DNA of 64,000 nt from a virus. The stretch lies in the IMG/VR virus record IMGVR_UViG_3300022602_000033; one strand, written 5' to 3'. The translations under genes and the position numbers were made by a program. Below the pieces are notes generated by a model, which was given only the letters and a program-made list of their open reading frames with translations, was not told the DNA's origin and searched no databases. This document shows positions 11,861-44,392 of the stretch, piece after piece (the stretch's first letter is position 1; every line of letters begins with the position of its first letter).

Positions 11861-12973
11861 TTAAAGTTCAGCACTTGCTGTAAAGTAATTTGCAGCTGTG
11901 GTCCACCAAGCACAGCCTCCTGTGCCACCCGTGGATGTAGCTCCAAAACTAAACGCTGTTTGTCCCGTATACAGCACGCTAGGGGTGTTGTAATCTGAAG
12001 TTTTTTGTATAGTGCCTACTATAGATACCGTGGGTACTATACGTTTATACACCATCGGCACATTTACCACTGCTGCCCACCAGCCGGCAGCATTGGATCC
12101 TTGTATAGCATAGAAGCCGTGATCAGTGTTACCCAGTACTTCAAAGTAGCGCTGGCATAAGAACAGTTCTTGTCCATACTGCCTGCGCTCAAACGGTGTG
12201 GCCACAGAACCTACCTCGGCCTGTGCGTAGCTGATATCAACACTGACACCGGAAGCAATACCACTATTAAAGGCTATGCCAAATTCCTGGCCAAGATTGG
12301 CAGTGCTGTTCAGAGTAGCAGTGACTGTTATGATGTTCAATCCAGAATTCACAGTAACACCTGTGCTAAAGCTGGTGGTGGTGCTGGCATAGTTGTTGGT
12401 AGCAGTCGGGCTTAAAGCGTATAGGGATACTCCGGTTATAGCAGTGCTGGCGTAGATCAACACCCTGAATGTGACCTGTGTACTTGATAGATCATCAGTG
12501 TTGAGATTTTCCACACGCTGACCAAAGTTGCAGCCAGTGCTGCCAGTGTTTCCAGTTATGCGGAATGCATAGGGAGTACCAGTGTTGGTACCAGCTACCT
12601 GTTGGCCGGTGAGCGTTGCACCTGTGGGATAGATGAACCATCTGTCCACACCATAGTTAAGCTGACCAAGGCTAGCTGTGTAGCTGGCTCCGCTGCGACG
12701 CTGGTCAATTTCCATGGCACCATTTATCAACCTATTGCGCATGCCAAAGCTTTTGCTAGTCATGAACTGGCTGGCATCGCCCATGGTAACTACACCATTG
12801 ACCTGCAGCGCAGTGGTGGGTGTGCTGGTGCCTATGCCTATGCTGGTGCTGGCTGTGACTGTAGATGCTGACAGTGACTGAGCGGTTAACACCACGTTGT
12901 TGCCAGTGTTGTTCAACACTGCAGATCCAGCGCTTGCGCTCAGTCCCAGGGTTCCGTCAAGGTAAAGGCTCAT
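11861..12973 (-). CDS. Fibre/adhesin protein, CQRY-AEL family (class A N-terminus)
   Basis: RNRLINGAM.IDQR...ATPFERR.YG.EL.LCQRY...SAEL; carbohydrate-binding-like beta domain. Confidence 0.8.
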   Translation of the reverse strand: MSLYLDGTLGLSASAGSAVLNNTGNNVVLTAQSLSASTVTASTSIGIGTSTPTTALQVNGVVTMGDASQFMTSKSFGMRNRLINGAMEIDQRRSGASYTASLGQLNYGVDRWFIYPTGATLTGQQVAGTNTGTPYAFRITGNTGSTGCNFGQRVENLNTDDLSSTQVTFRVLIYASTAITGVSLYALSPTATNNYASTTTSFSTGVTVNSGLNIITVTATLNSTANLGQEFGIAFNSGIASGVSVDISYAQAEVGSVATPFERRQYGQELFLCQRYFEVLGNTDHGFYAIQGSNAAGWWAAVVNVPMVYKRIVPTVSIVGTIQKTSDYNTPSVLYTGQTAFSFGATSTGGTGGCAWWTTAANYFTASAEL

Positions 12974-12976
12974 GTG

Positions 12977-14077
12977 TTATAGCTCCGCTGAAAATTTGAC
13001 ACGTGCCGATGTGTTAGCAGCCTGCGCGAATGATGCGTTGCCTGCTACCAATCCCGATGCCACTGTGATCTGAAGCAGCGCAGTCTGCACATCAGCTGTG
13101 CTCATGGTGCTGGCCGTCCAAGTCAATGCACTGCCCACGCTGGCATTGACCATGTACCAGTCTGAGTTAGCTGACACTGAAAAATTGCTGCCGGAGGGTG
13201 CTGTTCTCAGTGTAACAGGGAACACTATGGGGATGTATGCTGTGGTACCAGATGCTGCCTGTCCGGTTGGCAGAGCTTGAGCAGCCACGCCACCTATCTG
13301 GAAATAGTAGCGCTGGCACAGTGACAATTCCTGTCCATAAAGCCTACGCTCGAACGGTGTCGCTATTGTGCCTGGTTCTACCTGTACGCCAGTTATGTAA
13401 CCAGCCACGCCAAAACTGCCGATGTAAACCAACACAGCAGGCTGTGAGCCAGTTGGCGTCCCGCTCACCGTGAACGTCAAGGACACTTTAGACCACGATG
13501 TTGTGAAGCTGAAAGTCTGCGCTGATCCCCAGTTGTTGAGAGATCCTGCTGCTACACCATCTGCCCAGCCGATGCTGGCTGTTGAGGTACCAGCTGATGC
13601 GCCCTGTACCCAGAAGCTCATGGTCCAAACAGAACCAATCACATATTCCCCCGGCAGTCCGGCACCAGGCAGTTCTATGCTTTGGCGGAGATCAGCATTG
13701 TTGAGATAGGCTGAATAGGTGAAGCCTTGTCCCGAGGGCACAGTGGTCGAACGTGCATAGTCTCCAGCAGCGGCACCTGCTTTATATGATGCGAATCTGT
13801 CAGCTCCAAATATCACGCTGTTAGGCTGGAAAGACGTGCCACGCTGCCATATCTGCATGGCACCATTGATGATGCGATTTCTCATGCCAAAGCTGTTCAC
13901 GGTCACGTACTGGCTGCCATCGCCCATGGTCACGGCCACGTTGCTTCCCATGGTCAGCACGTTGTTGGCCAGCGTGAGCTGCGTGCCGCCGTAGCCAGTG
14001 CTGAACTGCAGCTGACCGCTGGCATCAGGCTGCAGTGCTAGTCCAGTACCAGTGTTGCTGGTGATAACTGATGCCAT
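12977..14077 (-). CDS. Fibre/adhesin protein, CQRY-AEL family (class B N-terminus)
   Basis: Same motif set; N-terminus MASVI..TGL...DASGQLQF. Confidence 0.8.
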   Translation of the reverse strand: MASVITSNTGTGLALQPDASGQLQFSTGYGGTQLTLANNVLTMGSNVAVTMGDGSQYVTVNSFGMRNRIINGAMQIWQRGTSFQPNSVIFGADRFASYKAGAAAGDYARSTTVPSGQGFTYSAYLNNADLRQSIELPGAGLPGEYVIGSVWTMSFWVQGASAGTSTASIGWADGVAAGSLNNWGSAQTFSFTTSWSKVSLTFTVSGTPTGSQPAVLVYIGSFGVAGYITGVQVEPGTIATPFERRLYGQELSLCQRYYFQIGGVAAQALPTGQAASGTTAYIPIVFPVTLRTAPSGSNFSVSANSDWYMVNASVGSALTWTASTMSTADVQTALLQITVASGLVAGNASFAQAANTSARVKFSAEL

Positions 14078-14080
14078 GGT

Positions 14081-15193
14081 TTATAGCTCCGCCGTGAAAT
14101 CAAGATAATTTCCGCTGCTGCTGGCGATGATCATGGCTGCTCTGCCAGTGGTCAAGCTTCCGCCTGCGCTGTTGGTGCCCACGTTGAAGCTGGCAGCGAC
14201 CGTGCCAGATGATTGCGCACTGATGCTGGTAACACCATTGATCACGGAACCATCATACACGCTGACTCCGCTGTAGCCAACGGTTGGCGCTGCTCGCATG
14301 GTCACCGGATTCACTGCTGTGATCTGGGCCGCGCTAGTAGCGCCATTGACCGCACCCACTGCCATGGTCTGGCTGCCAGATGCTGCCACATATGTGTTAC
14401 GGTAATAGTACCTCTGGCACAGTGCTAGCTCTGTAGTAAACTGCCTGTACTCAAACGGCGTTGCTGTGCCAGCCCGCTCCAGCTGCACACCAGTGATGTA
14501 GAATGTGGCACCTGAGGTACCCACTACATTCACCGAACCTGTTGGAGCTATGTAGGTACTATTGGTCCAAGCATTGGCAGGTCCGGTAAAGCTGCTACCT
14601 GTACCTAGTGCCCAGCTTACCAATATGCCTGCAGTGTTATTGGTTGGATAACTTCCTGTGGTATCGCCAGGGATGATTACAGTAATATATGTCCAGGTAT
14701 TGGCTGCTGAGATTGTGTACAAGAAAGGATACCATCTGGCACCACTTCCCTGTGCAATACTAGCGCCAAATGATCCAGTCAGCGATGAGTACACATAGAA
14801 ACTCAGAGTCACTGTCTTGGCATTGGCAGTGCCCCATGCTAGATCGGCTGTGTTGTAGCCTTCAATGCTCTGCCGTATGAGAAAATAATCACTGGATAGA
14901 ACGCTGTAGGCGCTGGATGATGTGAGACCCTGGTAATTAGCAAAACCCACGGGCGGACTAACTGAACCAGCATTCTGTTGGGCGGTGAATTTGGATACCT
15001 GTGTTCCTTGAAACCAGAATCTGTCAACCATGTATTGGCCGCTGGTTGGGGTTATAACAGACCCGGCATTCCTCTGGTCTATGACCATGGCGCCGTTGAT
15101 GATGCGGTTCCTGAAACCAGTGTAGCCGCTGGTGGGCTGAGCTGACCCATCTGGGAAGGTTAGACCGTTGATGCCATCCACATACAAGCTCAT
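14081..15193 (-). CDS. Fibre/adhesin protein, CQRY-AEL family (class A N-terminus)
   Basis: Start at 15193 (MSLYVDGING) overlaps the upstream stop as ATGA; same motifs. Confidence 0.8.
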   Translation of the reverse strand: MSLYVDGINGLTFPDGSAQPTSGYTGFRNRIINGAMVIDQRNAGSVITPTSGQYMVDRFWFQGTQVSKFTAQQNAGSVSPPVGFANYQGLTSSSAYSVLSSDYFLIRQSIEGYNTADLAWGTANAKTVTLSFYVYSSLTGSFGASIAQGSGARWYPFLYTISAANTWTYITVIIPGDTTGSYPTNNTAGILVSWALGTGSSFTGPANAWTNSTYIAPTGSVNVVGTSGATFYITGVQLERAGTATPFEYRQFTTELALCQRYYYRNTYVAASGSQTMAVGAVNGATSAAQITAVNPVTMRAAPTVGYSGVSVYDGSVINGVTSISAQSSGTVAASFNVGTNSAGGSLTTGRAAMIIASSSGNYLDFTAEL

Positions 15194-15663
15194 ATGATCA
15201 CCCACCTAGTTCCTGGTTGCACTGTGACGTTGGCCCCTGGGTTCAGAGTGATGTTGCCCACGCTGAACGCATTCTGGTTTGTGGGTATGGTATAGGCTGC
15301 GCTGATGGTCTTGTTGGTGCTCTGTATCACCCCGCTGGGATCAGTGGTGAAGTTGTTGGCGTTCATGTTGCCACCAACCTGCAGCGCTGTGACAGGGCTG
15401 GCAGTGCCTATGCCCACGTTGCCACCATAGACGTTCAGCGCTGCGGTGGGGCTCACAGTGTTGATACCAACCTGACCAGCAGCATTGATCACCAGCACCT
15501 GCGCAGTGTTGGTCACCAAGCTCAGCGTGTTGGTGCTTGGACTGAACATGCCCACGGGTACCGTGGTACCAACCGCGACATTGACGTTGTTCACAGTGAG
15601 GCCGCCCGTGACGTTGAAGGCACTGCTCTGTGATATCAGCGTGGGTATTACCTGATCAACCAT
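15190..15663 (-). CDS. Short fibre adaptor with C-terminal 'WVII' domain (class D N-terminus)
   Basis: GNVGIGT repeats; C-terminal YTIP...NA.SVG.IT...VTV..G.RWVII. Confidence 0.75.
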   Translation of the reverse strand: MVDQVIPTLISQSSAFNVTGGLTVNNVNVAVGTTVPVGMFSPSTNTLSLVTNTAQVLVINAAGQVGINTVSPTAALNVYGGNVGIGTASPVTALQVGGNMNANNFTTDPSGVIQSTNKTISAAYTIPTNQNAFSVGNITLNPGANVTVQPGTRWVII

Positions 15664-15666: not shown

Positions 15667-17169
15667 TCATAGCTCCGCATTGGCTGAAAGCGTTGGAGTT
15701 CCAGATCCACCGCTGACTGTGGCGTAAACTTGCCCAGTTGCCGTAGCTGTGACTCGTAGTGAGGCTCCGCTAGCTCCACTTAAACTCACTGTTGGCTGTC
15801 CATTGTTACCGCTAACGTTCCATGTGCCGTTCACAGCAACCACAGGAGATGCTCTCATGGTCACAGGCCATCTAACCATAGCGTCTAGATAGCTGCCACT
15901 GGTTAGATAGCCAGATGCTATCAGTGTTCCATCGCCTATAAGCAGGTAATACCTCTGGCAATCAACTAATACTTGATCATAGAGCTTGCGTTCAAATGGT
16001 GTGGCTACTGGACCTGGCTCTAGTTGGCAACCTGTGAAATCTATGTAATCCGCAGCACCTGCTGTGCCAGTGGTAACCCAGCTCCATCTCACGGCCATCT
16101 CGCCTATGCCAGCGCCTACTGGTATTGTAAATGAGAACCTGGTTCTTGTGGTAGTTGGTGTAAACGGGGCATTTAATATCTGAGTCTGGCCAGTCCACGT
16201 TGCACTGTTTAGAGATAATGTGCCTTGATCAGTGCCAGTTCCTGTCCATAGCTGTACTGATGCACTACCACCGCTATAGTTAGCACCAGCTGTGGCATAG
16301 AAGCTAAGTGTCACAGTCTGGCTTGATAGATCCACACAGTTATAGCTTTCTATGGTTTGCCCGGCATATAAAATCGGAGTACTAGCCTGGCCGTTACCAC
16401 GCTGTACACGCATAGCATAGGGGAAATCATATGCGCCGGTGGCTACTTGAAACACAGTGGCTACGCTGGTAATGCTGGCCAATGTCCACCATCTATCTGG
16501 ACCAAACACACCAGAACCAGAGCTAGTTATGGTTGCACCGCTACCAGTGGCCTGCCTCTGTGATATCTGCATGGCACCGTTTATCAAGCGATTGCGCAGG
16601 AAGCTGCTGCCCATGATCACGGTGTTCTGCACGTTCACGTTACCCTGCACGTCCAAGGTCTGTTGTGGGGCTGTGCTACCTATACCCACGTTGCCCGTGC
16701 TGGTTATGCGCATGCGCTCTGAAACACCAGAACCATTAGAAAGGTTAGTTCCAAAAAGTAAATTATCGCCAGAAGCGCCTAAACTAACACCGTAACCAGA
16801 GGTAGATGATTGTAAATTCAACCAAGATGTAACCGAAGTGCCTGCTGATGCAAATTGAGCCAGTAAATCTCCATATGCTGCGAATGTGTTATAGCCATTT
16901 ACGGTTAATTTCCCTCTAGATGACACAGTTCCAATATTGAGGTTGCCACCAGCATCAATGACCATCTGCTGTGCACCGCTGGTCCTGAACTGTATGGGCA
17001 GTGCGTTCTGCGTGCCTATGACCAGCGCACTGCCGTTGAAGCTGATGTTGCCACCACCAGTGCCGATGCCCACGTTGCCACCGAAGACTGTGTTGCCAAG
17101 GATGTCCGTGACCATGGCGATGTTGCCAGCGCTGGGATTGACTATGTTTACGACTTTGAGATAGCTCAT
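15667..17169 (-). CDS. Fibre/adhesin protein, CQRY-AEL family with ERMRI shaft repeats
   Basis: MSYLKV start, ERMRITS.GNVGIG, RNRLING...CQRY...NAEL. Confidence 0.8.
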   Translation of the reverse strand: MSYLKVVNIVNPSAGNIAMVTDILGNTVFGGNVGIGTGGGNISFNGSALVIGTQNALPIQFRTSGAQQMVIDAGGNLNIGTVSSRGKLTVNGYNTFAAYGDLLAQFASAGTSVTSWLNLQSSTSGYGVSLGASGDNLLFGTNLSNGSGVSERMRITSTGNVGIGSTAPQQTLDVQGNVNVQNTVIMGSSFLRNRLINGAMQISQRQATGSGATITSSGSGVFGPDRWWTLASITSVATVFQVATGAYDFPYAMRVQRGNGQASTPILYAGQTIESYNCVDLSSQTVTLSFYATAGANYSGGSASVQLWTGTGTDQGTLSLNSATWTGQTQILNAPFTPTTTRTRFSFTIPVGAGIGEMAVRWSWVTTGTAGAADYIDFTGCQLEPGPVATPFERKLYDQVLVDCQRYYLLIGDGTLIASGYLTSGSYLDAMVRWPVTMRASPVVAVNGTWNVSGNNGQPTVSLSGASGASLRVTATATGQVYATVSGGSGTPTLSANAEL

Positions 17170-17220: not shown

Positions 17221-17316
17221 TTATCCATAGAGCACAGTGTTGTTGCTACTGTTGTTTAACACGGCAGATCCGCTGCTGGCGCTTATGCCAAGTGTTCCGT
17301 CGAGATAAAGGCTCAT
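17221..17316 (-). CDS. 31-aa mini-ORF: N-terminal plug only (paralog of the 11861 gene N-terminus); may be a remnant
   Basis: Reads MSLYLDGTLGISASSGSAVLNNSSNNTVLYG then TAA TAG; GGAG RBS at normal spacing. Below the ORF-track cutoff. Confidence 0.55.
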   Translation of the reverse strand: MSLYLDGTLGISASSGSAVLNNSSNNTVLYG

Positions 17317-17319: not shown

Positions 17320-18894
17320 TTATAGCTCCGAGCTTACATACATGCCAACGCCAGTTAGTGCGCTGTTGAGATTGTTGCTGGAAAAGAACATGTAGCCCAT
17401 GCCAGTTGGTAAGGTCGAAGGAGCTACTAAGTCAAACAATATCACCTGAGAATTGATAACACTGCCCCCGTATTGCGTGATCGATGTTGGTCCGGTGTTT
17501 ATACCAGTGCCAACATAGCCATTTGACCCGCTGGCGAATGTAGAGGCCATGGTCTGCCAGTACCAAGTGGTGCCACTGATCAATCCAATTGACATTGTGC
17601 CGCGCTTGGGCACCAACATGTTTACCACGGCCTTGGCTGCGCTGCTGGTGGCATTGTACGTGGTTATACCACCGGCGATGTTTTCGTAATATCTCTGGCA
17701 AAGCTGCAATTCAGTTCCGTATAGCCTGCGCTCAAAAGGAGTGGCCACGCTGCCTATCTCCAGCTGCACCCCTGTGATATTAAAGGTAGAACCGTTGGTG
17801 TTCACCATGTTCACAGCACCAGTTGCCCCGTTATAGTTACCAGTGGCCCAGGCACCAGGTGTGGTAGAACCGGCCGTGCTTATCCCCAGTCCCCATTGTA
17901 TCAGCACGCCTATACCGTTGTTGGTGGTCCAAGCACCGCTGGTCTCTGGGGGTATGACAAGCGATATGAAGGTCCAAGTGTTGGCTGATGCAATGTTGTA
18001 CAGCGCAGGATAGGCTCTAGTGTTGGCACTGTTTTGGAGGCATATGCCAAAATTGCCAGTTAATGAACTGTATACCCAGAAACTCAATGTCGCATACTTG
18101 CCAGCAGCTGTGCCCCAGGCAAAGTCTGCTATGTTATAGCCCTCGATTGATTGGCTGATCCTGTAGAGATCACTACCAACCGTAGTAGCTGCTAGGCTAG
18201 TCACGCCGAGATAGTTGGTGAAACCGCTGGGCGGAGTCACAGAACCAGCGTTCTGCTGCACCGTGAACTTGCTGGCCTGCGAAGAATATGCCTGCCATCT
18301 ATCCAGCGTGTAAGTGCCTGCTCCTGCGGTCACGCTTGCGCCAGCATTGCGCTGATCGATCCTCATGTCACCGTTGATGATCCTGTTGCGAGGTCCAAGG
18401 CTCTGTGCAGTGTTAAACTGTGTAGCATCTGCAAAGCTAACTGTGCCATTAACTTGCAGTGCGCTGATCGGCGCCGTAGTTCCAACGCCAACGTTGCCAG
18501 AGCTGGTGATCCTCATGAGCTCTGTAGCACCACCTTGTGTGTTGAACGTGAGTGCACCGCCTGTGCCCACTGAGATGTTGGCAGTGCTGGTGGTGTAGAA
18601 GTAGAGACCGGTGCTGCTGCTGGCAGTGTTGGTATCACCTATGGCCAGCGCGGTATTGTTGCTGCCAAAGTGGCGCACTGTGAGCTTGCTGGCTGTGACG
18701 TTGGTAGTGGTGCCTATCAGCACGTTGCCCTGCTGGTCCACTCGCATGGCTTCTGCGCCGTTGACCGTGAATCCCATCACTGCGGTGTTGGGCCAGTAGA
18801 TGCCAGCGGTGTTGGTGCCGATGCCTATGGCTGGCGTCTGTGGCGTGCCTTGTGGGTTGACTATGCCAGCGCTGCCTGATAGTGTTAAGGTCAT
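17320..18894 (-). CDS. Fibre/adhesin protein, CQRY-SEL family
   Basis: E.MRI..GNVG repeats, RNRIINGDMRIDQR...CQRY...SSEL. Confidence 0.8.
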   Translation of the reverse strand: MTLTLSGSAGIVNPQGTPQTPAIGIGTNTAGIYWPNTAVMGFTVNGAEAMRVDQQGNVLIGTTTNVTASKLTVRHFGSNNTALAIGDTNTASSSTGLYFYTTSTANISVGTGGALTFNTQGGATELMRITSSGNVGVGTTAPISALQVNGTVSFADATQFNTAQSLGPRNRIINGDMRIDQRNAGASVTAGAGTYTLDRWQAYSSQASKFTVQQNAGSVTPPSGFTNYLGVTSLAATTVGSDLYRISQSIEGYNIADFAWGTAAGKYATLSFWVYSSLTGNFGICLQNSANTRAYPALYNIASANTWTFISLVIPPETSGAWTTNNGIGVLIQWGLGISTAGSTTPGAWATGNYNGATGAVNMVNTNGSTFNITGVQLEIGSVATPFERRLYGTELQLCQRYYENIAGGITTYNATSSAAKAVVNMLVPKRGTMSIGLISGTTWYWQTMASTFASGSNGYVGTGINTGPTSITQYGGSVINSQVILFDLVAPSTLPTGMGYMFFSSNNLNSALTGVGMYVSSEL

Positions 18895-18913: not shown

Positions 18914-20149
18914 TCATTGTATCCTCAATAAATTCCATGTTATGGTCTGTGTAGCCCCAGAACTCTGTGAGGCTGAGATAGTAAGGCTACTAATGGTAAC
19001 TGAGACGCCACTGGCAGATACCAGTGCTGTTACTGTATTGTAGGTATTATTTCCTGCTTGGCGCACGAAATATAAGGTATTATATACCTGCGCTTGGTCA
19101 GCGTTAGGGATGGTCACAGTAAGGAGATAGCTGCGAACCACAGTGGTTGGTAAAGTGATGATCGTATAGGATGTACCAGTCGCACATCCTGCCAGGGAAC
19201 CGTTCACTGAACTGAAGATACCACCTGTAACATATGCTGTGTTAGTTAAACTGCCTGCGCTGGTCGTCGTCCCCACCAGCAGATTGCCGCTGGAGTCGAT
19301 ACGCATGCGTTCTGTGACAGCTGTCCAAAACTGAAGTGTCCCCGCTTGAAAATTGACAATAGAAAAGTCTAAACCATTTTGACCCATCTGTGTGCCGTTG
19401 CCTGACGCAGTACCTGATGTCGGGGTTGTAAACCGAATGAGAGGGTTGGTGCCATTGATTTGAAGATTGGGGGTACCATATCCTGTTGGCGAACTTGTCC
19501 CAAAACCTACGTTGCCGGAGGAGTCGATGCGCATGCGTTCTGCATTGGTTCCGCTATTTGAAGTATAGAAGGCTTGATAAGTATTTCCGCCTGTGGAATA
19601 GGCATTTAATATTAACGCGCCACTTATCCCCGCATAATTTATATAACCATTGTTTGTAGAAGAAGCGCTACTATCGCCAAAAGAAATTTGATTGCCGCTT
19701 GATGCAATCACAGCTAATTTTCCATAACTGCTTGGCGAAGTTGTACCAATCCCGAAGTTACCGCTGGCATCAAGCGTCATTTGAGTGTTGTTGTTGGTGC
19801 CAAAATATAACACGGCGTTGGCCCTGTTATAAATGTAAGCATTGGCCGACCCTGTGCCACCAAGAAGGCCAAGATTGAAATTTCCGCTGGCAGGGTTTGA
19901 GAATCCAATGCCAGTTCCGGGATCATAGATGGCCAGTTTTGTACCCGGCGAAGTCGTACCAATCCCGAGATTGCCGTTGGCATCGATGACCATGGCCACC
20001 CCAGCATTGGTGCTGTAGAAAGTAGGTGAAGTCACGTTGGCCAATGTGTCGTTGACGTTGGGCAAGGTAAGCGTGTTGTTCTGTGCTGCAGTGTTGGCCA
20101 CCAGCTGCACGTATCCACTGCTGTCTCCCAGTAGCTTGAGAGTGCTCAT
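18914..20149 (-). CDS. Fibre protein with multiple ERMRIDSSGN shaft repeats (class C N-terminus)
   Basis: MSTLKL.G.SSG.V.L...TLTLP start; four GN.GIGT/ERMRI units; unique tip. Confidence 0.78.
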   Translation of the reverse strand: MSTLKLLGDSSGYVQLVANTAAQNNTLTLPNVNDTLANVTSPTFYSTNAGVAMVIDANGNLGIGTTSPGTKLAIYDPGTGIGFSNPASGNFNLGLLGGTGSANAYIYNRANAVLYFGTNNNTQMTLDASGNFGIGTTSPSSYGKLAVIASSGNQISFGDSSASSTNNGYINYAGISGALILNAYSTGGNTYQAFYTSNSGTNAERMRIDSSGNVGFGTSSPTGYGTPNLQINGTNPLIRFTTPTSGTASGNGTQMGQNGLDFSIVNFQAGTLQFWTAVTERMRIDSSGNLLVGTTTSAGSLTNTAYVTGGIFSSVNGSLAGCATGTSYTIITLPTTVVRSYLLTVTIPNADQAQVYNTLYFVRQAGNNTYNTVTALVSASGVSVTISSLTISASQSSGATQTITWNLLRIQ

Positions 20150-31061: not shown

Positions 31062-31781
31062 TCATATGTAGTGTTCCTCTATGATGATGATGCCGTTGGC
31101 TCCAGCTGTGCCTCCCCTGTAACCGCCACTGCCGCCGCTGCCACCACTGCCAACTGAATAGGCATAGCTGGCTGCCACAGGATACACGATGCACTCTATG
31201 TAACCACCTGAGGCACCCCCTGATCCAGCATCTGCTTGCACGCTGCTGTAATAACATGCACCACCAGCGCCGCCTGATCCATATCCCGTGGCTGCTGCTG
31301 TTGCGTCAACCGTGTTCGCAGGCGCACCACCGCCAAAGGGGCTGTTACCTCCAGCGCCGCCGTAGCCATAGCTGGGGCTGTTCTTGACCTCACCTGGAGC
31401 GCCATATGCACCAACCAACGCAATCCCAGATGCACCGGCACCTATTGTAGCACTGCCCCCTGCTGCCACTTGATCGCTGCCCCCAACTCCACCTGCACCA
31501 CCATTGCAGGTCAGGAAGCTGGAACCAAATGTGGTCGCACCACCAGGTGACCCACCAGTAGCTGCTCCACCATTGTTGGAACCCGAGCCACCACCTCCTC
31601 CACCTCCAACCATGCGCACGCGCAACCATGCCACACCGCCGGGCACAGTATAGGTACCGCTGCCTGAAGTCACTATGGTCTGTGTGGGTGCTGCCAGCGT
31701 GAAGGTGGTGTTGCTGGCCACGTTTGGTGCTGCCAGAGTGACCGTGCCTGACGTGTTGCCTGCGAGAACCAGATTACCCAT
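31062..31781 (-). CDS. Glycine-rich tip protein, class C N-terminus
   Basis: MGNLVLAG.TSG.VTL.AP start (GAGG RBS favours 31781 over 31787); TSGSGTYTVP.GV....V..VGGGGGG...G.IIIEE. Confidence 0.78.
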   Translation of the reverse strand: MGNLVLAGNTSGTVTLAAPNVASNTTFTLAAPTQTIVTSGSGTYTVPGGVAWLRVRMVGGGGGGGSGSNNGGAATGGSPGGATTFGSSFLTCNGGAGGVGGSDQVAAGGSATIGAGASGIALVGAYGAPGEVKNSPSYGYGGAGGNSPFGGGAPANTVDATAAATGYGSGGAGGACYYSSVQADAGSGGASGGYIECIVYPVAASYAYSVGSGGSGGSGGYRGGTAGANGIIIIEEHYI

Positions 31782-31790
31782 GTGCATACC

Positions 31791-39162: not shown

Positions 39163-40329
39163 TCAATAGTAGATAACACAGTAGGCACCACCACCGCCCG
39201 TGCTGGTATACTGGCTGGTGCTGATCACTATGTCACCGCCCCAGGCATACTTGCTCCAACCGTTGTAGGTGTCTATGGTCTTGGCCAGATCTGGGTCTTC
39301 ATACATGGCTGGGATCTGCTGCTCACCCGTGAAGGTAGCACCCTGTATCACGGTTGGTCCTATGAAACCGCTGCCTCCGCCGCCTCCAGCCATGGTGTTG
39401 GATTCGTAATAGCCACCGCCACCGCCGCCCCAGTAGCCGCCGCCACCTCCGCCACCATAGGCGTTGCTGGACCCGTATCCGCCTGCCAGCGCCCCGCTGC
39501 CGCCCCCTGCGTTACCTTGCGTGACACCTGTTGCTCCTGCAGAAGTCTGCGTGCCCGGACCTCCGCCGCTGCTGGCGCGACCGTCATAGGGGCTGTTACC
39601 AGTCTGGCCGCTAGCTCCCCCTCCTGCACCTCCCCAGTTGCCATCAAGGAAGCGGCTGCTGCCTCCGCCACCACCACCACCGGCTATGAGCAGCGCACCT
39701 GCTTGGCTGACACTGCCTCTGAATATGCCGCTGTAGCCGCCTCCAGATCCCGCATATCGATTATCTGAGTTGTTGTACATGCCGCCTCCGCCGCCGTAGC
39801 TATTCACAGTTGCTCCCGGATAGTTACATTGGCCTGCCACGCCAACCACCAGCGTCAGCGTCTCGCCTGGTACCACAGGTATGATGCCTCTGCTGTGACC
39901 ACCACCGCCGCCTCTGCTGCCTGTGTTCCAGCCACCGCTGCTGCCGCCGCCACCACCAGCTCCCCACAGCTTGGCATAGATGTACTGCACGCCAGCTGGG
40001 ACCACCAAGCTTTGGTTAGCACCTGTGGGTATGTAGACCACACGAGTCCTACCCGCAGGCGTCACGGTCTGGCTCTGGCTGATGAAGGTGAATCCCGCGT
40101 AGCTTGTGAGCACGTTGCCGGTGTTGTCCAGCGCAAGGTACACGTTGCCGCTGTTGCCTAGTCCCAGCGTGCTGGTGCCAGTGATCACTGACAGGTTGCC
40201 TATCTGCGCCTGGCCTATGCTGTTGGGCACGATGTTTGAACCTGCGATCAGAGTGGTGGTGCTGTTGCTGACCAAACCGCTGCCACCTGCGGCCGATATG
40301 CCGTTCTGTCCATCTATGATGATGCTCAT
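39163..40329 (-). CDS. Glycine-rich tip protein, class A N-terminus (tandem paralog of 40642)
   Basis: TGA.QS.VVPAG...AKLWGAGG...IAGGGGGGG...YGGGGGGGYWGGGGG. Confidence 0.8.
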   Translation of the reverse strand: MSIIIDGQNGISAAGGSGLVSNSTTTLIAGSNIVPNSIGQAQIGNLSVITGTSTLGLGNSGNVYLALDNTGNVLTSYAGFTFISQSQTVTPAGRTRVVYIPTGANQSLVVPAGVQYIYAKLWGAGGGGGSSGGWNTGSRGGGGGHSRGIIPVVPGETLTLVVGVAGQCNYPGATVNSYGGGGGMYNNSDNRYAGSGGGYSGIFRGSVSQAGALLIAGGGGGGGSSRFLDGNWGGAGGGASGQTGNSPYDGRASSGGGPGTQTSAGATGVTQGNAGGGSGALAGGYGSSNAYGGGGGGGYWGGGGGGYYESNTMAGGGGGSGFIGPTVIQGATFTGEQQIPAMYEDPDLAKTIDTYNGWSKYAWGGDIVISTSQYTSTGGGGAYCVIYY

Positions 40330-40631
40330 GGCTTGGGATACCTCGCCTTGACAGCAGCTATCTGATCTGCCATGTCTTGTGGGAATGCACCAGCGCGATA
40401 CAGTGCATCCAGCTGTTCGCCTATGCTTGGATAGTCCATGGCCCTCTGCCGCTGATAGTGCGTGATGTCCCAGGCTGCCTGCAGCTGATCGCGCTGTGCT
40501 GCTACCTCGGCTTCAGTGGGAGCAGAGTTTTCGCTGTCAAACCACTGCATTGTCTCCCAGAGATCATCCTTGATGGTGAAAGCCGAGCCCGGTCTCAGCG
40601 CAAGCATGGCATCTGTGTAGGTGTATCTCAT
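40326..40631 (-). CDS. Small fibre assembly chaperone (XkdW-like)
   Basis: A..LRPG...W....PTEAE....YQRQR..YPSI.EQLD.L...VKA.YPK. Confidence 0.72.
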   Translation of the reverse strand: MRYTYTDAMLALRPGSAFTIKDDLWETMQWFDSENSAPTEAEVAAQRDQLQAAWDITHYQRQRAMDYPSIGEQLDALYRAGAFPQDMADQIAAVKARYPKP

Positions 40632-40641: not shown

Positions 40642-41820
40642 CTAGTAGTAGATCACGCAGTAGCCGCCGCCGCCACCAGTGCTGGTGTATTGTGCGCCGC
40701 CGCTGATGTTGGCATCGCCGCCCCAGCCGTATTTGTTCCATCCGTTGTATGTATCCACAGTCTTGGCCAGATCTTGGTCTTCGTACAAAGCTGGCCAGTT
40801 CTGCTGTCCAGTGAAGGTAGCCCCGAATCGCACGCTGGCAGATATGAAGCCGCTGCCACCACCTCCTCCAGCCATGGTGTTGGGTTCTATGTAACCGCCA
40901 CCGCCACCGCCCCAGTAGCCTCCGCCGCCACCGCCACCATAGGGATTGGTGCTGACAGGTCCGCCAGCGCCTCCTGTGAGCGCCGTGCCAGCTGCTGCGC
41001 CCGTACCAGCAGCTCCACCGCCTGTCTGACTGCCAGGACCGCCGCCGTAGGCGCTATAGCTATCATAGGGTGCGTTACCAGTCTGGCCAGTGGGGCCACC
41101 GCCAGCTCCGCCCCAGTTGCCATCACGGAACCTGCTGCTGCCACCACCACCACCGCCACCAGATATGAGCAGCGCATTGGCTTGGCTGTTGCTGGCGCCT
41201 CTGAATATGCCTGTGAGCCCGCCTCCACTGCCACAGAAATAGTTGTTGGTGTTGGTGGCCAATCCGCCCCCGCCGCCGTATCTGGGTGTGGTGCTGCCTG
41301 CATAGTTGGTCTGGCCTGCTAAACCAACCATTATGGTCAGCGTCTCGGTTGGTACCACGGGTATCAGCCCACGAGCATGCCCACCGCCACCGCCTCTGCT
41401 GCCAGTGACCCAGCCACCCTGGCTGCCAGCTGCGCCGCCTGCACCCCACAGTTTCGCGTATATCCACGTGATGCCTGCAGGTACCACAAAGCTCTGATCA
41501 GCACCAGTTGGTATGAAAACCACCCTGGTCTTGTTGGTGGGCAGCACCTGCACCTGCTGGCTCACGAATGTGAACTGTGCGAAGTTGGTCAGCAAGTTTC
41601 CCGTGCTGTCCAAGGTCACGGTGGCATTGCCGGCTGTGGTCAGCGTGAGGCTGTTGGTCCCGCTGATGAGGGTGTTCACGGTACCAATCTGTCCGCTGGT
41701 TATAGTGTTCAACGCCAGCGTGCTGGCCTGCACAGATGCCGGGGGTGCTGAGCTGGCATTCACTACTGTGCTAACGCCAGTGCCACTGATGCCATTGGTT
41801 CCATCAATGATGATGGTCAT
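40642..41820 (-). CDS. Glycine-rich tip protein, class A N-terminus
   Basis: Co-linear and highly similar to 39163..40329. Confidence 0.8.
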   Translation of the reverse strand: MTIIIDGTNGISGTGVSTVVNASSAPPASVQASTLALNTITSGQIGTVNTLISGTNSLTLTTAGNATVTLDSTGNLLTNFAQFTFVSQQVQVLPTNKTRVVFIPTGADQSFVVPAGITWIYAKLWGAGGAAGSQGGWVTGSRGGGGGHARGLIPVVPTETLTIMVGLAGQTNYAGSTTPRYGGGGGLATNTNNYFCGSGGGLTGIFRGASNSQANALLISGGGGGGGSSRFRDGNWGGAGGGPTGQTGNAPYDSYSAYGGGPGSQTGGGAAGTGAAAGTALTGGAGGPVSTNPYGGGGGGGYWGGGGGGYIEPNTMAGGGGGSGFISASVRFGATFTGQQNWPALYEDQDLAKTVDTYNGWNKYGWGGDANISGGAQYTSTGGGGGYCVIYY

Positions 41821-41823: not shown

Positions 41824-42942
41824 TTAGAGCTCCGCAAACAGAGCGTAGTCAAAATCATAGCCGGCTCCTAATACCAAAGGGGTATTCGATAGTGCTATGT
41901 AACCATAGCCCTGAGCACCCCAGTTTGGATAACCGCCTATGTTCAATGCAGCAGTTGCTCCGCTAACCGTGGTGCGCACTTGATTGGCAGTGCTGTTGTT
42001 GTAAATCTGCACCGTGCTGGGAGCAGCACGCATGGGCACAGAGCTGGATAACCTCGTGGTGATGCCACTGGTAGCATAGGCAATGCCGCTGGCTGTTCCC
42101 ACAGCCAGAGCGCTGGTTATTGGACTATATGTGGTGAAATAATACCGTTGGCACATGCTCAGCTCAACACCGTAGTTTCTGCGCTCAAATGTTGTGGCTA
42201 CACCACCTGGCTCCAGCTGCACACCGGTAATGTATAACACAGCTCCCGATGTAGCCACAGTGTTCACCGCACCAACAGCCGACCAGTACGAACCGCTAGC
42301 CCAGGCTCCTGCTGTCCCTTGATAGGTCGAACCAGTACCTAGATTCAAGTTCACATATAAACCAACACCATTGGTGGTCAGCCAAGTTCCTGCTCCGCCT
42401 GTGTCGCCGGGTATCACTATTGTGAAATACTGCCAAGTGTTAGCTGCAGATATGGTATATAGGAAAGGATAGCTCCTCGAACCTGCATAATTCACTATAG
42501 CACCACCATAATTGCCTTGGAGGTTGCTGTAGGCCCAGAAGCTGATCGTCACAGTCTTGGCCAAACCAGTACCCCAGGCTAGGTCGCTGATGTTGTATCC
42601 CTCTATTGGTTGCTGTAGCAATATGAGATCACTGCTTACCGGTGAATAAGCACTGAGCGATGTCATTCCCAGATAATTGGTGTAACCAGATGGCGTTGTG
42701 ACTGAGCCGGCATTCTGTTGAGCAGATAGCTTGCTAGCTTGGCTGGAGTAGATGCCCCATCTGTCAGTGATATATGTCCTTACGCCTGTTGCGGTTACAG
42801 TGACACTGGCTCCAGCATTCCTCTGATCTATGACCATTGCGCCGTTGATTATGCGGTTGCGGAAACCTGTGTAGCCAGCCGTGCCCTGTGTGCTTGCGTC
42901 GTTGAAGGTGATGCCTGCCTGTCCGTCTACTATGGTGGTCAT
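41824..42942 (-). CDS. Fibre/adhesin protein, CQRY-AEL family (class A N-terminus)
   Basis: MTTIVDG..GITF; GFRNRIINGAMVIDQR...CQRY...FAEL. Confidence 0.8.
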   Translation of the reverse strand: MTTIVDGQAGITFNDASTQGTAGYTGFRNRIINGAMVIDQRNAGASVTVTATGVRTYITDRWGIYSSQASKLSAQQNAGSVTTPSGYTNYLGMTSLSAYSPVSSDLILLQQPIEGYNISDLAWGTGLAKTVTISFWAYSNLQGNYGGAIVNYAGSRSYPFLYTISAANTWQYFTIVIPGDTGGAGTWLTTNGVGLYVNLNLGTGSTYQGTAGAWASGSYWSAVGAVNTVATSGAVLYITGVQLEPGGVATTFERRNYGVELSMCQRYYFTTYSPITSALAVGTASGIAYATSGITTRLSSSVPMRAAPSTVQIYNNSTANQVRTTVSGATAALNIGGYPNWGAQGYGYIALSNTPLVLGAGYDFDYALFAEL

Positions 42943-43274
42943 TGCGTATCACCCTTGGGATATTGAGCCTTGACAGTGGCCAAAGTGGTATAGAAGTCAC
43001 TGGTCTTGTCCAGCTTGCCCTGATCAAGGGCATGCCACAGCATGTCCAGCTGATCATTGATGCTGGGATAAGCTCTGTATCGATCCGTCCTGTATGATTT
43101 GGAATCATAGTCTGCTTGCAGCCTTGCGATCTCCGCCGCAATCTCATCGCGCGTTGGCATAACTTGCGTGTCATCAAGCCACTGCAGTTGATCATAGTCT
43201 TCAGACAACATGCTCCAAGCAGCGCCTGGTCGCAGGCTGAGCAGTGCATCAGTGGTAGTAGCCTGTTTATTCAT
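42939..43274 (-). CDS. Small fibre assembly chaperone (XkdW-like)
   Basis: AL.SLRPGA.W...W.D...PT..EI...Y...R..AYPSI.DQLD.L...VKA.YPK. Confidence 0.72.
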   Translation of the reverse strand: MNKQATTTDALLSLRPGAAWSMLSEDYDQLQWLDDTQVMPTRDEIAAEIARLQADYDSKSYRTDRYRAYPSINDQLDMLWHALDQGKLDKTSDFYTTLATVKAQYPKGDTQ

Positions 43275-43987
43275 TGTGCTATCTCCATGACCGTTATGGT
43301 GCTCAAGGGCATACCATCATAGTCAGTGCCGCCGTTCTGGTATGTGGTCTGACGATTCACATACACTGTAGGACTACCGCTGTAACCACGCAGCTGCACG
43401 CCATAGGTCAGGGCGCTGGTTGTGGCTGGTGTGTCTATGTGCTGTCCGCCAAGCATTCCCATCCTGTACTGTAGGTCACCAGTGGCCTGTCCGCTGTACA
43501 TGTTTATGCGACCAGTCACGCCAGCACGACCGCCTTCAGCTGAACCTATCACACCGCTTGGCACTGATCCGTTGCGCAGGATCTGATATTGCTGCTGGTA
43601 ACCATCTGCGGTAGGATCAACACCCACATACATGTTAACCATCACAAGGATCTTGCTGGTATTGCTGGTTGGTGTTATGGTCACGGACAGACCTGTGACG
43701 GTGACCCAGTAGCCGCTTCCTGATGCACCCAAGGCCGTGAATGAGGTTCCCAAGCTGCCCTGCAGGACCTGCAGTATAGTTCCAGCTGGCATGCTAGCGC
43801 TGCTGATGCCACGCGCTGCTACGTTGAGAGTGTTAACAGAAATGCCACCCATCGTGACATTGCTGTTGCTGTTGATGGTCATGGCCACGTTACCAGTGCC
43901 TAGACCAGTGCTGAAGGTCATGTTGCCTGAGTTGTCAGGTGTGATGATCAATCCCGTGCCGGGCACTGCCTGAAGGTTAACGGCCAT
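43271..43987 (-). CDS. Fibre tip protein, EIAA family, class B N-terminus
   Basis: GTILQV...VTITPTS.TSKILV...DTPATTSA.TY..Q...STITVMEIAQ. Confidence 0.8.
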   Translation of the reverse strand: MAVNLQAVPGTGLIITPDNSGNMTFSTGLGTGNVAMTINSNSNVTMGGISVNTLNVAARGISSASMPAGTILQVLQGSLGTSFTALGASGSGYWVTVTGLSVTITPTSNTSKILVMVNMYVGVDPTADGYQQQYQILRNGSVPSGVIGSAEGGRAGVTGRINMYSGQATGDLQYRMGMLGGQHIDTPATTSALTYGVQLRGYSGSPTVYVNRQTTYQNGGTDYDGMPLSTITVMEIAQ

Positions 43988-43999
43988 GTGTGCTCTCCA

Positions 44000-44392
44000 T
44001 CATACTATGACCCATCTGCTGCCGCTCTGTACTGTGACGTTGGCACCGGTGGCTATGGTGAGGTTGCCCACGCTGAGCGCATTCTTGCCCACAGGCACCA
44101 CGTATGGCGCGTTCACGCTCTGGCCAAAGGTCTGCACAGCGCCACCTGGGCTGCTGCTGTAGTTGGTGCTGTTGAGATTGCCAGTGATGTCCAGCACATA
44201 CTGTGGTACTGCGCTGCCTATGCCCACGTTGCCCCAGAACACTGCTGCGGCCTGGGTGGCTGTGCCAGCCACTGTGAGCGCACCATAGATGCTGCTGGTA
44301 CCCATGCCCACGCCGCCGCCAGTGGTGATCAGCTGCGTGCCACCCACATGCAGGCCATCCGTGTCTAGCCAAAGCGTCTGGTTGGTGGTCAT
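44000..44392 (-). CDS. Short fibre adaptor with C-terminal 'WVIV' domain
   Basis: GNVGIG motif; Y.VP.GKNALSVG.LTI..G..VTV.SGSRWVIV. Confidence 0.72.
   Translation of the reverse strand: MTTNQTLWLDTDGLHVGGTQLITTGGGVGMGTSSIYGALTVAGTATQAAAVFWGNVGIGSAVPQYVLDITGNLNSTNYSSSPGGAVQTFGQSVNAPYVVPVGKNALSVGNLTIATGANVTVQSGSRWVIV

What the first reader, a model, noticed from the sequence alone, without database searches (positions are those of the whole stretch)
11861..44392. 'WVIV' C-terminal adaptor domain is always followed by a group of about three fibres with A/B/C-class N-termini
Seen: four proteins (15190, 20151, 31791, 44000) have no tip and end in the same ~40-aa domain (Y.VP...NA.S.G.I....VTV..G..W.I[VIL]). 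Downstream genes: 15190 gives A,B,A; 31791 gives C,B,A; 20151 gives C,A,mini-A (plus C-like 15667 in the next operon); 44000 gives B,A,A,A, where the last two are a tandem duplicate. Class A = M.(I/L).(V/I/L)DG..G(I/L); class B = ..D.SG.(L/M).F/L; class C = L.L.G..SG.V.L. These classes occur only after such adaptors. Inference: the domain is a three-way splitter at branch ends, or a socket with interchangeable plugs giving heterogeneous virions.
Basis: partly seen in the sequence, partly recalled or inferred. Interest (0 to 1): 0.85.

Follow-up and report, generated by a model that had tools for sequence, protein, structure and literature searches.

The report
Three-slot socket on phage fibre ends
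Four tip-less fibre proteins of this cyanophage-like virus end in a small unnamed domain whose gene is followed, here and in many other phages including the model cyanophage P-SSP7, by about three short sugar-binding-type proteins carrying three kinds of N-terminal tag, which most likely plug into that domain to give each fibre several host-recognition heads; binding itself has not been shown.

Summary
Exactly four proteins in the window end in the ~48-aa 'W' domain, always at the last residue, and each is followed by 3-4 short fibre genes with class A, B or C starts. Gene 15667 belongs to a fourth class, S.

The rule holds elsewhere. The domain occurs in 7,431 protein clusters and has no Pfam, NCBIfam or PDB match. 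In IMG/VR, 34 of 54 dereplicated W ends are followed within 60 nt by a tagged gene, against 6 of 369 control ORF ends. Among fibres sharing one body fold, 23 of 23 with an A, C or S start have a W gene within 5 kb upstream. Fibres with other starts are mixed: 13 have one, 20 do not. The modal set is three, one each of A, C and S or B.

W subtype tracks the third tag. Arg at position -5 goes with B, other residues with S. All four window adaptors obey this.

P-SSP7 has the same layout, and published host-range mutations map to its tagged genes 37 and 38 (PMC5520035).

The most likely reading is a distal docking socket with three non-equivalent slots. Docking and stoichiometry are untested; the complex prediction never ran. 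This scan found the system before on other DNA (e1-5632193, e1-5632203).

The parts
44000..44392 (-). Adaptor 4, 130 aa. The W domain is the last ~48 aa (about 44003-44146) and ends SGSRWVIV (Arg at -5).
   Evidence: W HMM E=6.7e-27, ends at the last residue. It is identical to representative P0004. No Pfam or NCBIfam match.
43271..43987 (-). Class B short fibre, 238 aa, ends MEIAQ.
   Evidence: N-terminus MAVNLQAVPGTGLIITPDNSGNMTF. Matches the C-terminal part of phrog_6942 tail fibre, E=1.9e-15.
42939..43274 (-). Small chaperone-like protein, 111 aa.
   Evidence: phrog_9114 E=2e-19. Same family as MEP402 gp58 and gp56 and the P-SSP7 96-aa gene.
41824..42942 (-). Class A fibre, 372 aa, with an RNRIING...AEL body (CBM-like jelly roll).
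   Evidence: phrog_4492 tail fibre E=1.6e-46.
40642..41820 (-). Class A fibre, 392 aa, with a glycine-rich body. Tandem paralog of 39163.
   Evidence: Pfam ALK_LTK_GRD, 44.9 bits against a cutoff of 24.5. N-terminus MTIIIDGTNGIS.
40326..40631 (-). Small chaperone-like protein, 101 aa.
   Evidence: Its C-terminus ends KARYPKP, as in the other small proteins. It was used in the chaperone HMM.
39163..40329 (-). Class A fibre, 388 aa, with a glycine-rich body.
   Evidence: N-terminus MSIIIDGQNGIS.
31791..32819 (-). Adaptor 3, 342 aa. The W domain (about 31794-31937) ends PGQRWVIL (Arg at -5). The N-terminus is class E.
   Evidence: W HMM E=3.5e-24. In an AF2 model of the last 80 aa, the final 40 residues have pLDDT 87-93.
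31062..31787 (-). Class C fibre, 241 aa (239 aa from the likelier start at 31781), with a glycine-rich body.
   Evidence: N-terminus MGNLVLAGNTSGTVTLAAPNVASNTTFTLAAP.
29885..31051 (-). Class B fibre, 388 aa, ends SAEL.
   Evidence: N-terminus MTSFINAQTTAGGGLSFVSDASGNLQLQ.
28700..29881 (-). Class A fibre, 393 aa, with a glycine-rich body.
   Evidence: Pfam Gly_rich_2, 53.6 bits against a cutoff of 24.3. N-terminus MTTIVDGSQGIT.
20151..20993 (-). Adaptor 2, 280 aa. The W domain (about 20154-20297) ends SGSTWSIV (Thr at -5, the S-type socket). The N-terminus is class E.
   Evidence: W HMM E=1.3e-25. Matches the C-termini of phrog_36881 and phrog_34255.
18914..20149 (-). Class C fibre, 411 aa.
   Evidence: N-terminus MSTLKLLGDSSGYVQLVANTAAQNNTLTLP.
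17320..18894 (-). Class A fibre, 524 aa, with an N-terminal extension and an RNRIING...SEL body.
17221..17316 (-). 31-aa 'mini-A'. It is a copy of the 5' end of 11861 with its upstream junction, and is probably a recombination scar.
   Evidence: DNA alignment. ORF listing.
15667..17169 (-). Class S fibre, 500 aa, with an RNRIING-type body ending NAEL. A late-promoter-like motif lies just upstream.
   Evidence: N-terminus MSYLKVVNIVNPSAG. Class HMM assignment. Body alignment. Motif GCTAAATATC upstream.
15190..15663 (-). Adaptor 1, 157 aa. The W domain (about 15193-15336) ends PGTRWVII (Arg at -5). The N-terminus is class D.
   Evidence: W HMM E=2.2e-28. Matches the C-terminus of phrog_5342 tail fibre, E=4.3e-10.
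14081..15193 (-). Class A fibre, 370 aa, with a CBM-like body ending TAEL. Its start overlaps the adaptor's stop codon (ATGA).
   Evidence: In the AF2 model, residues 40-240 have pLDDT 80-96. Foldseek matches CBM4/11/16/22 at E about 1e-5.
12977..14077 (-). Class B fibre, 366 aa, with a CBM-like body ending SAEL.
   Evidence: Weak Pfam CBM_4_9 match, 21.4 bits against a cutoff of 25.9.
11861..12973 (-). Class A fibre, 370 aa, with a CBM-like body ending SAEL.

Best explanation
The ~48-aa C-terminal 'W' domain (..NAMS.GP.TI..G.TVTV.SG..W.[IV][VLI]*) is a docking socket at the distal end of a fibre or a short adaptor. Short receptor-binding proteins dock to it through an N-terminal tag. Many of these proteins are lectin-like jelly rolls or glycine-rich heads.

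There are three non-equivalent slots. One takes class A (M.I.I[DN]G..GI). One takes class C (M..I.L.G..SG..TI.AP......LTLP). The third takes class S (MSTLKVN.I) or class B (MAS.INA....GL....D.SG.L.LQ), depending on the W subtype. A typical fibre end therefore carries three different heads.

Proteins that have both a tag and a W domain nest the system into a tree. In this window four such sockets would hold 13 heads.

Shown here: the domain, its strictly C-terminal position, the gene-order association in both directions, the set composition and the link between W subtype and third tag. Inferred: physical docking, which end is distal (from the T7-type N-terminus in P-SSP7), the stoichiometry, and whether the heads are monomers or trimers.
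For: 1. The window holds exactly four W copies, all at the extreme C-terminus. In 1.84 billion representatives, 7,431 proteins match at E<=1e-3. In roughly 145 of the top 150 the domain ends at the last residue, on very diverse N-termini.

2. Forward test. Of 54 dereplicated IMG/VR W ends, 34 are followed within 60 nt by a start scoring as a tag class, against 6 of 369 control ORF ends (odds ratio 103, p=5e-30).

3. Reverse test. Loci were found through the fibre body alone (RNRIING motif). With tag HMMs trained on the independent forward set, 23 of 23 A/C/S fibres with known context have a W gene within 5 kb upstream. Fibres with unclassified starts are mixed, 13 with W and 20 without (Fisher p=1.5e-6).

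4. A tblastn search with a C tag alone found 7 phage records. W lies directly upstream of the C-tagged gene in the three I opened: ICBM1, MEP301 and MW202796. The other four are further Lentibacter ICBM records, and the W search hit five Lentibacter records.

5. Set size is modal at three. At 90% dereplication 21 of 29 triples are one each of A, C and S/B, against an expected fraction of 0.21 (p=3e-9). At 65% dereplication it is 8 of 10.

6. Sets with a B tag have Arg at W position -5 in 13 of 13 cases. Sets with an S tag have it in 5 of 33 (p=8e-8). In the window the three Arg-type W adaptors have B fibres, and the Thr-type W adaptor has the S fibre and no B.

7. Cultured phages show the same layout: P-SSP7, Syn19, Lentibacter ICBM1, MEP402, MEP301 and Sf-FR1. 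The W-ending fibre of P-SSP7 carries the Pfam Phage_T7_tail N-terminal domain (55.6 bits), which puts W at the distal end.

8. Published genetics (PMC5520035). P-SSP7 genes 37-39 lie directly after tail-fibre gene 36. Mutations that overcome host resistance map to genes 37 and 38. gp37 and gp38 are virion proteins whose location is unknown.

9. Nested forms exist: 60-aa proteins made of an A tag plus W (L057, L064, L067, L068) and C-tagged W proteins (P0005, P0006).

10. The body of fibre 14081 models as a compact CBM4-like jelly roll. This fits independent glycan-binding heads.
Against: No interaction was measured or predicted, because the one complex job never returned a result.

Residue-level covariation between W and the tags was not significant.

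Of 76 dereplicated W sites, 12 have no recognisable tagged gene downstream. Some genomes have a second, orphan W protein.

A C3-symmetric adaptor trimer does not obviously offer three different slots.

Two of the four window groups are not canonical: A,B,A and B,A,A,A.

The link between W subtype and third tag may partly reflect shared descent of whole cassettes. There are 5 exceptions among S sets, and the myovirus MW202796 is another.

The statistics rest on loci chosen by best match. Dereplication is only partial. The tag HMM cutoff also missed 4 of the window's 13 tagged genes.
Confidence: 0.62

Rival explanations
1. There is one socket and the plugs are interchangeable. Each W trimer binds a single fibre coaxially, and the downstream genes compete for it. 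Individual fibres and virions would then carry different heads at random.
For: All four tag classes begin with a similar short beta-strand-like M-x-hydrophobic-x-hydrophobic-(D/N)-G pattern. The window has groups with two or three A fibres, one pair being a tandem duplicate. There are lineages whose sets are S,S,S. A symmetric trimer naturally offers one axial site.
Against: One-of-each composition is about three times more frequent than random draws would give. Four tag classes remain distinct across podoviruses and myoviruses while the bodies shuffle freely. B and S exclude each other and track the W subtype, which implies slot-specific recognition.
Confidence: 0.17
2. There is no direct docking. 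W is a generic C-terminal cap or folding nucleus of the fibre shaft. The tagged genes merely travel with it as a cassette, their conserved starts serving assembly on another virion site or recombination between cassettes.
For: W models as a couple of beta-helix-like turns with no partner needed. The mini-A scar shows recombination exactly at a tag boundary. In MEP301 a homing endonuclease is inserted at a tag boundary. There is no residue-level covariation. Orphan W proteins exist.
Against: The order of A, C and S/B after W varies (ACS, CSA, CAS, BCA, CBA), so no fixed DNA junction is conserved. Conservation is at the protein level across very distant phages. Fibres with the same body but other N-termini are often found without a W gene upstream: 20 of the 33 with known context. 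W subtype tracks the third tag even within this one genome. W sits where T7-type fibres carry their tip.
Confidence: 0.13
3. W is itself a minimal receptor-binding tip. The downstream proteins are separate fibres attached elsewhere on the tail or baseplate.
For: W is terminal and strongly conserved, and it replaces the tip domain in the P-SSP7 T7-type fibre.
Against: Receptor-binding tips are normally the most variable part of a fibre. W is one of the most conserved parts, at 40-75% identity across phages of cyanobacteria, Rhodobacterales and Methylophilales. This reading does not explain the tag association or the subtype rule.
Confidence: 0.05

Closest known systems
P-SSP7 tail fibre (gene 36) with genes 37, 38, 39 and 41 (Schwartz and Lindell 2017, PMC5520035)
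   Same: It has the same W domain at the fibre's C-terminus, followed by A-, C- and S-tagged ~190-aa proteins, a small chaperone and a second S protein. Genes 37 and 38 are virion proteins and determine adsorption and host range in the published work.
   Different: The paper describes three paralogs of unknown virion location. [quoted passage not shown] It does not describe the W domain, the tag classes or any docking. P-SSP7 has one socket on a T7-type fibre. The window has four sockets on short adaptors of a T4-like phage, with unrelated head folds.
Branched receptor-binding complexes with T4 gp10-like domains (CBA120 TSP1-4, G7C gp66/gp63.1, Klebsiella KP32-type anchor and branch). This comparison rests on my own knowledge of the field plus the closest-known lines of earlier scan notes.
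   Same: One virion-anchored protein carries docking modules for further receptor-binding proteins, which attach through their N-terminal parts. This gives multivalent host recognition.
   Different: In those systems the docking modules lie in the N-terminal part of the anchor protein and are gp10-like. Here the socket is a ~48-aa C-terminal domain with no Pfam match and no clear structural relative. The partners use three short peptide classes.
Lactococcus phage TP901-1 / Tuc2009 baseplate tripod (BppU C-terminal domain holding BppL trimers). This comparison rests on my own knowledge.
   Same: It is a three-way junction. The C-terminal domains of one trimer hold three receptor-binding units by their N-terminal ends.
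   Different: The three BppL units are identical homotrimers and the holder is a baseplate protein. Here the three partners carry three different tags and different bodies. No sequence or fold relation was detected.
T4 long tail fibre joints (gp34-gp35-gp36-gp37). This comparison rests on my own knowledge.
   Same: Separate fibre proteins are encoded consecutively and joined end to end through conserved terminal segments.
   Different: The T4 joints are serial, one to one. Here one end is followed by about three partners in parallel.

Membership tests
Unnamed W-socket / N-terminal tag system (type example: P-SSP7 gene 36 with genes 37-39) | A ~48-aa W domain at the extreme C-terminus of a fibre or adaptor protein. 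| tested here: met
   There are four copies at E between 2e-28 and 4e-24, each ending at the last residue. The same profile hits 7,431 representatives and the P-SSP7 fibre.
Unnamed W-socket / N-terminal tag system (type example: P-SSP7 gene 36 with genes 37-39) | Genes directly downstream start with class A, C and S or B tags, typically three in number. | tested here: met
   The window sets are B,A,A,A; C,B,A; C,A,S; and A,B,A. Elsewhere the modal set size is 3, with one of each class in 21 of 29 triples.
Unnamed W-socket / N-terminal tag system (type example: P-SSP7 gene 36 with genes 37-39) | The tagged proteins physically dock on W. | not testable with these tools
   The single complex-prediction job never returned a ticket or a result. 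No experiment is on record.
Unnamed W-socket / N-terminal tag system (type example: P-SSP7 gene 36 with genes 37-39) | The tagged proteins are virion components that determine adsorption or host range. | not testable with these tools
   This is published for P-SSP7 gp37 and gp38 only (PMC5520035). For the window it is inferred from tail-fibre PHROG matches and the CBM-like fold.
T4 gp10-like branching adaptors (CBA120 TSP2/TSP4, G7C gp66, KP32-type) | A T4 gp9/gp10-like domain in the anchor protein. | tested here: inconclusive
   None of the four adaptors has a Pfam match to any gp9/gp10 family at E<=0.01. Fold searches with the W model found nothing clear: Foldseek gave no hit at E<=1e-3, and the best VIA Z-score was 2.2. 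The parts upstream of W were not modelled.
TP901-1 / Tuc2009 BppU-BppL tripod | BppU-type holder and BppL-type receptor-binding protein folds. | tested here: inconclusive
   No Pfam or PHROG match to these proteins. Fold searches of the W model gave no such row. Absence from those lists does not exclude a relation.
Carbohydrate-binding module fold (CBM4/9/11/16/22-like) for the RNRIING...AEL bodies | A beta-jelly-roll of CBM type. | tested here: met
   The AF2 model of 14081 has pLDDT 80-96 over residues 40-240. Foldseek matches CBM4, CBM11, CBM16 and CBM22 at E 8e-6 to 2e-4, with TM-score up to 0.68 on the target. At the sequence level Pfam CBM_4_9 scores only 21.4 bits against a cutoff of 25.9 in 12977. 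This is fold similarity, not family membership.
Phage tail assembly chaperone (Pfam PF16778 Phage_tail_APC) | A match above the gathering score. | tested here: met
   Gene 23143-23541 scores 43.3 bits against a cutoff of 26.6. The three other small proteins (42939, 40326, 21014) match only PHROGs or each other.

The most novel reading that the evidence does not exclude
W is a true heteromeric three-way junction. A single kind of ~48-aa beta-helix-like end recognises three different N-terminal tags at three non-equivalent positions. Either each tag extends a different face of the domain, or one A, one C and one S/B chain form a heterotrimeric collar on the adaptor trimer. Each fibre end would then carry a fixed trio of different, possibly monomeric, lectin-like heads. 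The W subtype (Arg or non-Arg at -5) would select B or S for the third position. This would be a compact, portable assembly code found in many aquatic phages and nestable into trees.
Probability: 0.3. Interest if true: 0.85.

Novelty: new variant of a known kind. Interest (0 to 1): 0.7.

Why it matters
Branched receptor-binding complexes are known from a few enterobacterial and lactococcal phages. This socket is a different and very common one: 7,431 clusters at 50% identity and 180 cultured phage records, most of them marine cyanophages. It has no name, no solved structure and no description in the papers I could search.

It would place the long-unlocated host-range proteins gp37-39 of the model cyanophage P-SSP7 at the fibre tip.

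It would help explain why the region downstream of the tail-fibre gene is poorly recruited in metagenomes for P-SSP7 and most other T7-like cyanophages tested (PMC5520035).

It would give a simple rule for reading multi-head fibre arrays in uncultured phages.

The tag and socket rules, including the link between W subtype and third tag, can be tested directly in cultured non-pathogen systems such as P-SSP7, Syn19, ICBM1 and MEP402.

Tried and rejected
1. Complex prediction. The design was the W end of 31791 in three copies plus one C, one B and one A tag, each supplied as an alignment (A6, A9, A8, A7). I sent it 17 times. The machine was unreachable or gave no usable answer each time. The session then reported the cap as used without ever issuing a ticket. 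No docking result exists, for or against.

2. Residue-level mutual information between W positions and tag positions (68 A, 42 C, 77 S and 18 B pairs). Nothing stood out beyond shuffles, with z<=3.5 over many tests.

3. An Arg(-5) to Asp salt bridge with the B tag. I dropped this because S tags often carry a similar D-A-S-G motif (for example L092, L112 and L113), so the Asp is not specific to B.

4. Sequence search of PDB with the W profile gave only chance-level rows. Foldseek gave no hit at E<=1e-3. The VIA wide search gave a best Z of 2.2, to beta-helix proteins such as the IcsA autochaperone (rmsd 2.0 A over 41 residues). That is a lead only.

5. Pfam, NCBIfam and the ESM Atlas gave no name for W.

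6. Natural single-chain fusions of W followed by a tag, which could have been folded as one chain, were sought and none was found.

7. Near-identical DNA was sought in cultured phages and in IMG/VR. There was no match, and no whole genome is held.

8. The first related-loci run with the six-sequence W alignment failed because no stretch was conserved enough. A closer alignment (A4) worked.

9. The canonical T4 late promoter TATAAATA is absent from the array. A related motif is present.

Full report
**What the window is**

The window carries a minus-strand array of about 30 fibre-type genes (11861-61802). These lie next to a 3813-aa protein and a 1097-aa virion protein. The 1097-aa protein is 37-39% identical to structural proteins of T4-like cyanophages such as S-PM2, S-RSM4 and Syn1. 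There is no near-identical DNA in cultured phages or in IMG/VR, and no whole genome is held. The closest contig found, L083, has one fibre gene at 82% identity.

**Checking the observation**

All end in ..G..V.V..G..W.I[VIL]. An HMM of the last 60 residues finds exactly these four in a six-frame scan, each ending at the final residue, and nothing else scores better than E=0.2.

Start-anchored patterns for class A and class B hit no other called gene start in the window.

Three details change:
- Gene 15667 is not C-like. It belongs to a fourth class, S (MSTLKVN.I), which turns out to be the commonest class elsewhere.
- Gene 14081 starts at the ATG at 15193, which overlaps the adaptor's stop codon.
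- The 31-aa mini-A is an ~85% DNA copy of the 5' end of 11861, including the preceding junction. It is most simply a recombination scar at a tag boundary.

A motif [GC][AT]TAAATAT lies 5-12 nt upstream of several starts, including 31791, 20151 and 15667.

**How widespread the domain is**

I call the domain W. A profile of the four window copies, searched against 1.84 billion representative proteins, gave 7,431 hits at E<=1e-3 and 1,912 at E<=1e-10. In roughly 145 of the best 150, the match ends at the last residue of the protein.

The N-termini of these proteins are very diverse. A few carry class C tags themselves.

W has no Pfam or NCBIfam family and no named ESM Atlas cluster. It has no sequence match in PDB. 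In PHROGs it appears only as the tail end of three families.

An AF2 model of the last 80 residues of 31791 is confident over the final 40 residues (pLDDT 87-93), with six short strands. Fold searches gave nothing significant. The weak rows are beta-helix proteins.

**Forward test: what follows W**

Eighty IMG/VR loci fetched through W hold 104 domains, 102 of them C-terminal. Among candidate starts within 60 nt after the W stop codon, 62 of 126 match a tag pattern. On the opposite strand 8 of 4,754 do.

After dereplication, and using HMMs whose best negative-control score was 6.4 bits against a cutoff of 8, 34 of 54 W ends are followed directly by a tagged gene. The figure for control ORF ends is 6 of 369 (odds ratio 103).

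**Reverse test: what precedes tagged fibres**

Six window fibres share one body (RNRIING...ATPFERR...AEL) behind A, B or S tags. I fetched 80 further loci through that body alone. I then classified the N-termini with HMMs trained only on the forward set.
- All 23 fibres scoring as A, C or S with known context have a W-ending gene within 5 kb upstream.
- Of fibres with unclassified starts, 13 have one and 20 do not.
- By eye, most of the 13 are clear A or S variants below the cutoff.
- The 20 carry other short starts, such as MTLAVNIAQGGSNN directly before RNRIING, or long anchor domains.

A tblastn search with a C tag alone found seven phage records. W lies directly upstream of the C-tagged gene in the three I opened: ICBM1, MEP301 and MW202796. 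The other four are further Lentibacter ICBM records, and the W search had hit five Lentibacter records.

**The rule of three**

Seventy-six dereplicated W sites have at least 3 kb of downstream sequence. Their set sizes are 0 (12 sites), 1 (11), 2 (19), 3 (33) and 4 (1). These are counted with a conservative cutoff that misses some real tags, including 4 of the window's 13.

The commonest compositions are {A,C,S} (16), {A,B,C} (6) and {S,S,S} (6). At 90% dereplication, one each of A, C and S-or-B accounts for 21 of 29 triples, against an expected fraction of 0.21. At 65% dereplication it is 8 of 10. Gene order varies: ACS, CSA, CAS, BCA, CBA.

B and S almost never occur together, so they behave as alternatives for one position.

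**W subtype and the third tag**

Sets containing B have Arg at W position -5 in 13 of 13 cases, typically ..RWVVL. Sets containing S have Arg in 5 of 33, typically ..WTVV.

The window contains both subtypes and obeys the rule four times out of four:
- 44000 (SRWVIV), 31791 (QRWVIL) and 15190 (TRWVII) are followed by B fibres.
- 20151 (STWSIV) is followed by C, A and then the S fibre 15667, with no B.

This may partly reflect cassettes inherited whole. Finding it within one genome still argues for cognate pairing.

**Cultured phages and published experiments**

W occurs in 180 cultured phage records. The layouts I read:

| Phage | W-ending protein | Genes that follow |
|---|---|---|
| P-SSP7 | 715-aa fibre with Pfam Phage_T7_tail N-terminal domain, ends ENWTIV | A, C, S, chaperone, S |
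| Syn19 | 138-aa adaptor | S, S, S |
| Sf-FR1 | giant structural protein (about 3,490 aa by its annotated coordinates) | three paralogous ~250-aa heads with S-like starts |
| Lentibacter ICBM1 | 599-aa tail protein | A, chaperone, C, chaperone, then two unclassified genes |
| MEP402 | 147-aa gp60 | B, chaperone, C, chaperone, A |
| MEP301 | 583-aa tail fibre | B, endonuclease, C, chaperone, A |

Schwartz and Lindell (PMC5520035) describe P-SSP7 genes 37-39 as three paralogs directly after tail-fibre gene 36. They report that mutations overcoming host resistance map to genes 37 and 38. They also note that gp37 and gp38 are virion proteins whose location is unknown. I found no paper describing the W domain, the tags or their pairing.

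**What the heads are**

The body of 14081 models as a compact jelly roll (residues 40-240, pLDDT 80-96). It resembles carbohydrate-binding modules CBM4, CBM11, CBM16 and CBM22 (Foldseek E about 1e-5, TM-score up to 0.68 on the target). Other heads are glycine-rich domains (Pfam Gly_rich_2, ALK_LTK_GRD). Small chaperone-like genes are interspersed, and one of them meets Pfam Phage_tail_APC. A well-folded monomer model fits heads that need not be intertwined trimers, but it does not prove that.

**Most likely mechanism**

W is a distal docking socket, and the short N-terminal tags are its plugs. There are three non-equivalent positions: A, C, and S or B.

Proteins carrying both a tag and W would nest the system. 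Examples are 60-aa A-tag-plus-W proteins in L057, L064, L067 and L068, and C-tagged W proteins such as P0005.

How a symmetric trimer would offer three different positions is open. The two options I can see are three faces of a beta-helix-like end, or a heterotrimeric collar of one A, one C and one S/B chain.

The rivals are interchangeable plugs on one site, mere co-inheritance without binding, and W as the tip itself. They are set out in their own section, with the evidence for and against each.

**Limits**

No binding was measured or predicted, because the complex job never ran. Loci were chosen by best match and are only partly independent. Contexts reach 10 kb at most. Tag calling is conservative. 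Twelve W sites have no recognisable partner gene.

**Relation to earlier notes of this scan**

Follow-up reports on other genomes (e1-5632193, e1-5632203, e1-5742033, e1-2904169) describe the same three-slot hub and its presence in P-SSP7. I re-derived the P-SSP7 layout and the rule of three independently. This report adds the reverse test through the body fold, the equivalence of B and S, and the link between W subtype and third tag.

Noticed in passing
window 17221-17316 (-): A 31-aa ORF copies the first ~30 codons of gene 11861, plus the junction GAGCTATAACAC upstream of it, at about 85% DNA identity. It looks like a recombination scar exactly at a tag boundary. An expressed plug-only peptide cannot be excluded.
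   Followed up: partly
window, upstream of 50361, 44389, 36813, 31791, 26493, 21334, 20151 and 15667 (-): The motif [GC][AT]TAAATAT lies 5-12 nt before these start codons. The canonical TATAAATA is absent from the array. It looks like a variant late promoter with almost no leader.
   Followed up: partly
window 44389, 35332, 33092, 26493, 21334, 15190 (class D) and 36813, 31791, 20151 (class E), all (-): Two further conserved N-terminal classes mark the long fibres and three of the four adaptors: D (M[TV]D[FY]V.G.M) and E (MA.S.AY.L.N). What they attach to is unknown. It could be the baseplate, the 1097-aa protein or the 3813-aa protein.
   Followed up: no
window 24990-26486 (-): A tryptophan-halogenase-like gene (phrog_2928, E=8.8e-100) sits inside the fibre array. 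Sf-FR1 has one in the same position, after its three heads.
   Followed up: no
window 11861-18894 and 41824-42942 (-); alignment A10: All CBM-like RNRIING bodies end in AEL or SEL at the very C-terminus. Glu369 is invariant and Leu370 near-invariant in 48 sequences. This may be a conserved terminal motif with a function of its own.
   Followed up: no
L166 (Methylophilales phage MEP301) 3420-4001: A 193-aa gene annotated 'putative endonuclease' lies between the B and C fibres. It begins with nearly the same 10-11 residues (MASIKLQGD.S) as the C tag of the next gene, which suggests a mobile-element insertion at the tag boundary.
   Followed up: no
L067 2131-2313 and L068 948-1130 (also L057, L064): These 60-aa proteins consist only of a class A tag fused to a W domain. 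Each is encoded right after a larger W protein and before several S-tagged heads, so they would be minimal nested adaptors.
   Followed up: partly
L013, L015, L018, L078, L081: Each of these loci has a second, long W-ending protein followed by small membrane- or lysis-like genes rather than tagged heads, while another W protein in the same locus has an S,S,S set. These may be orphan sockets that share heads.
   Followed up: no
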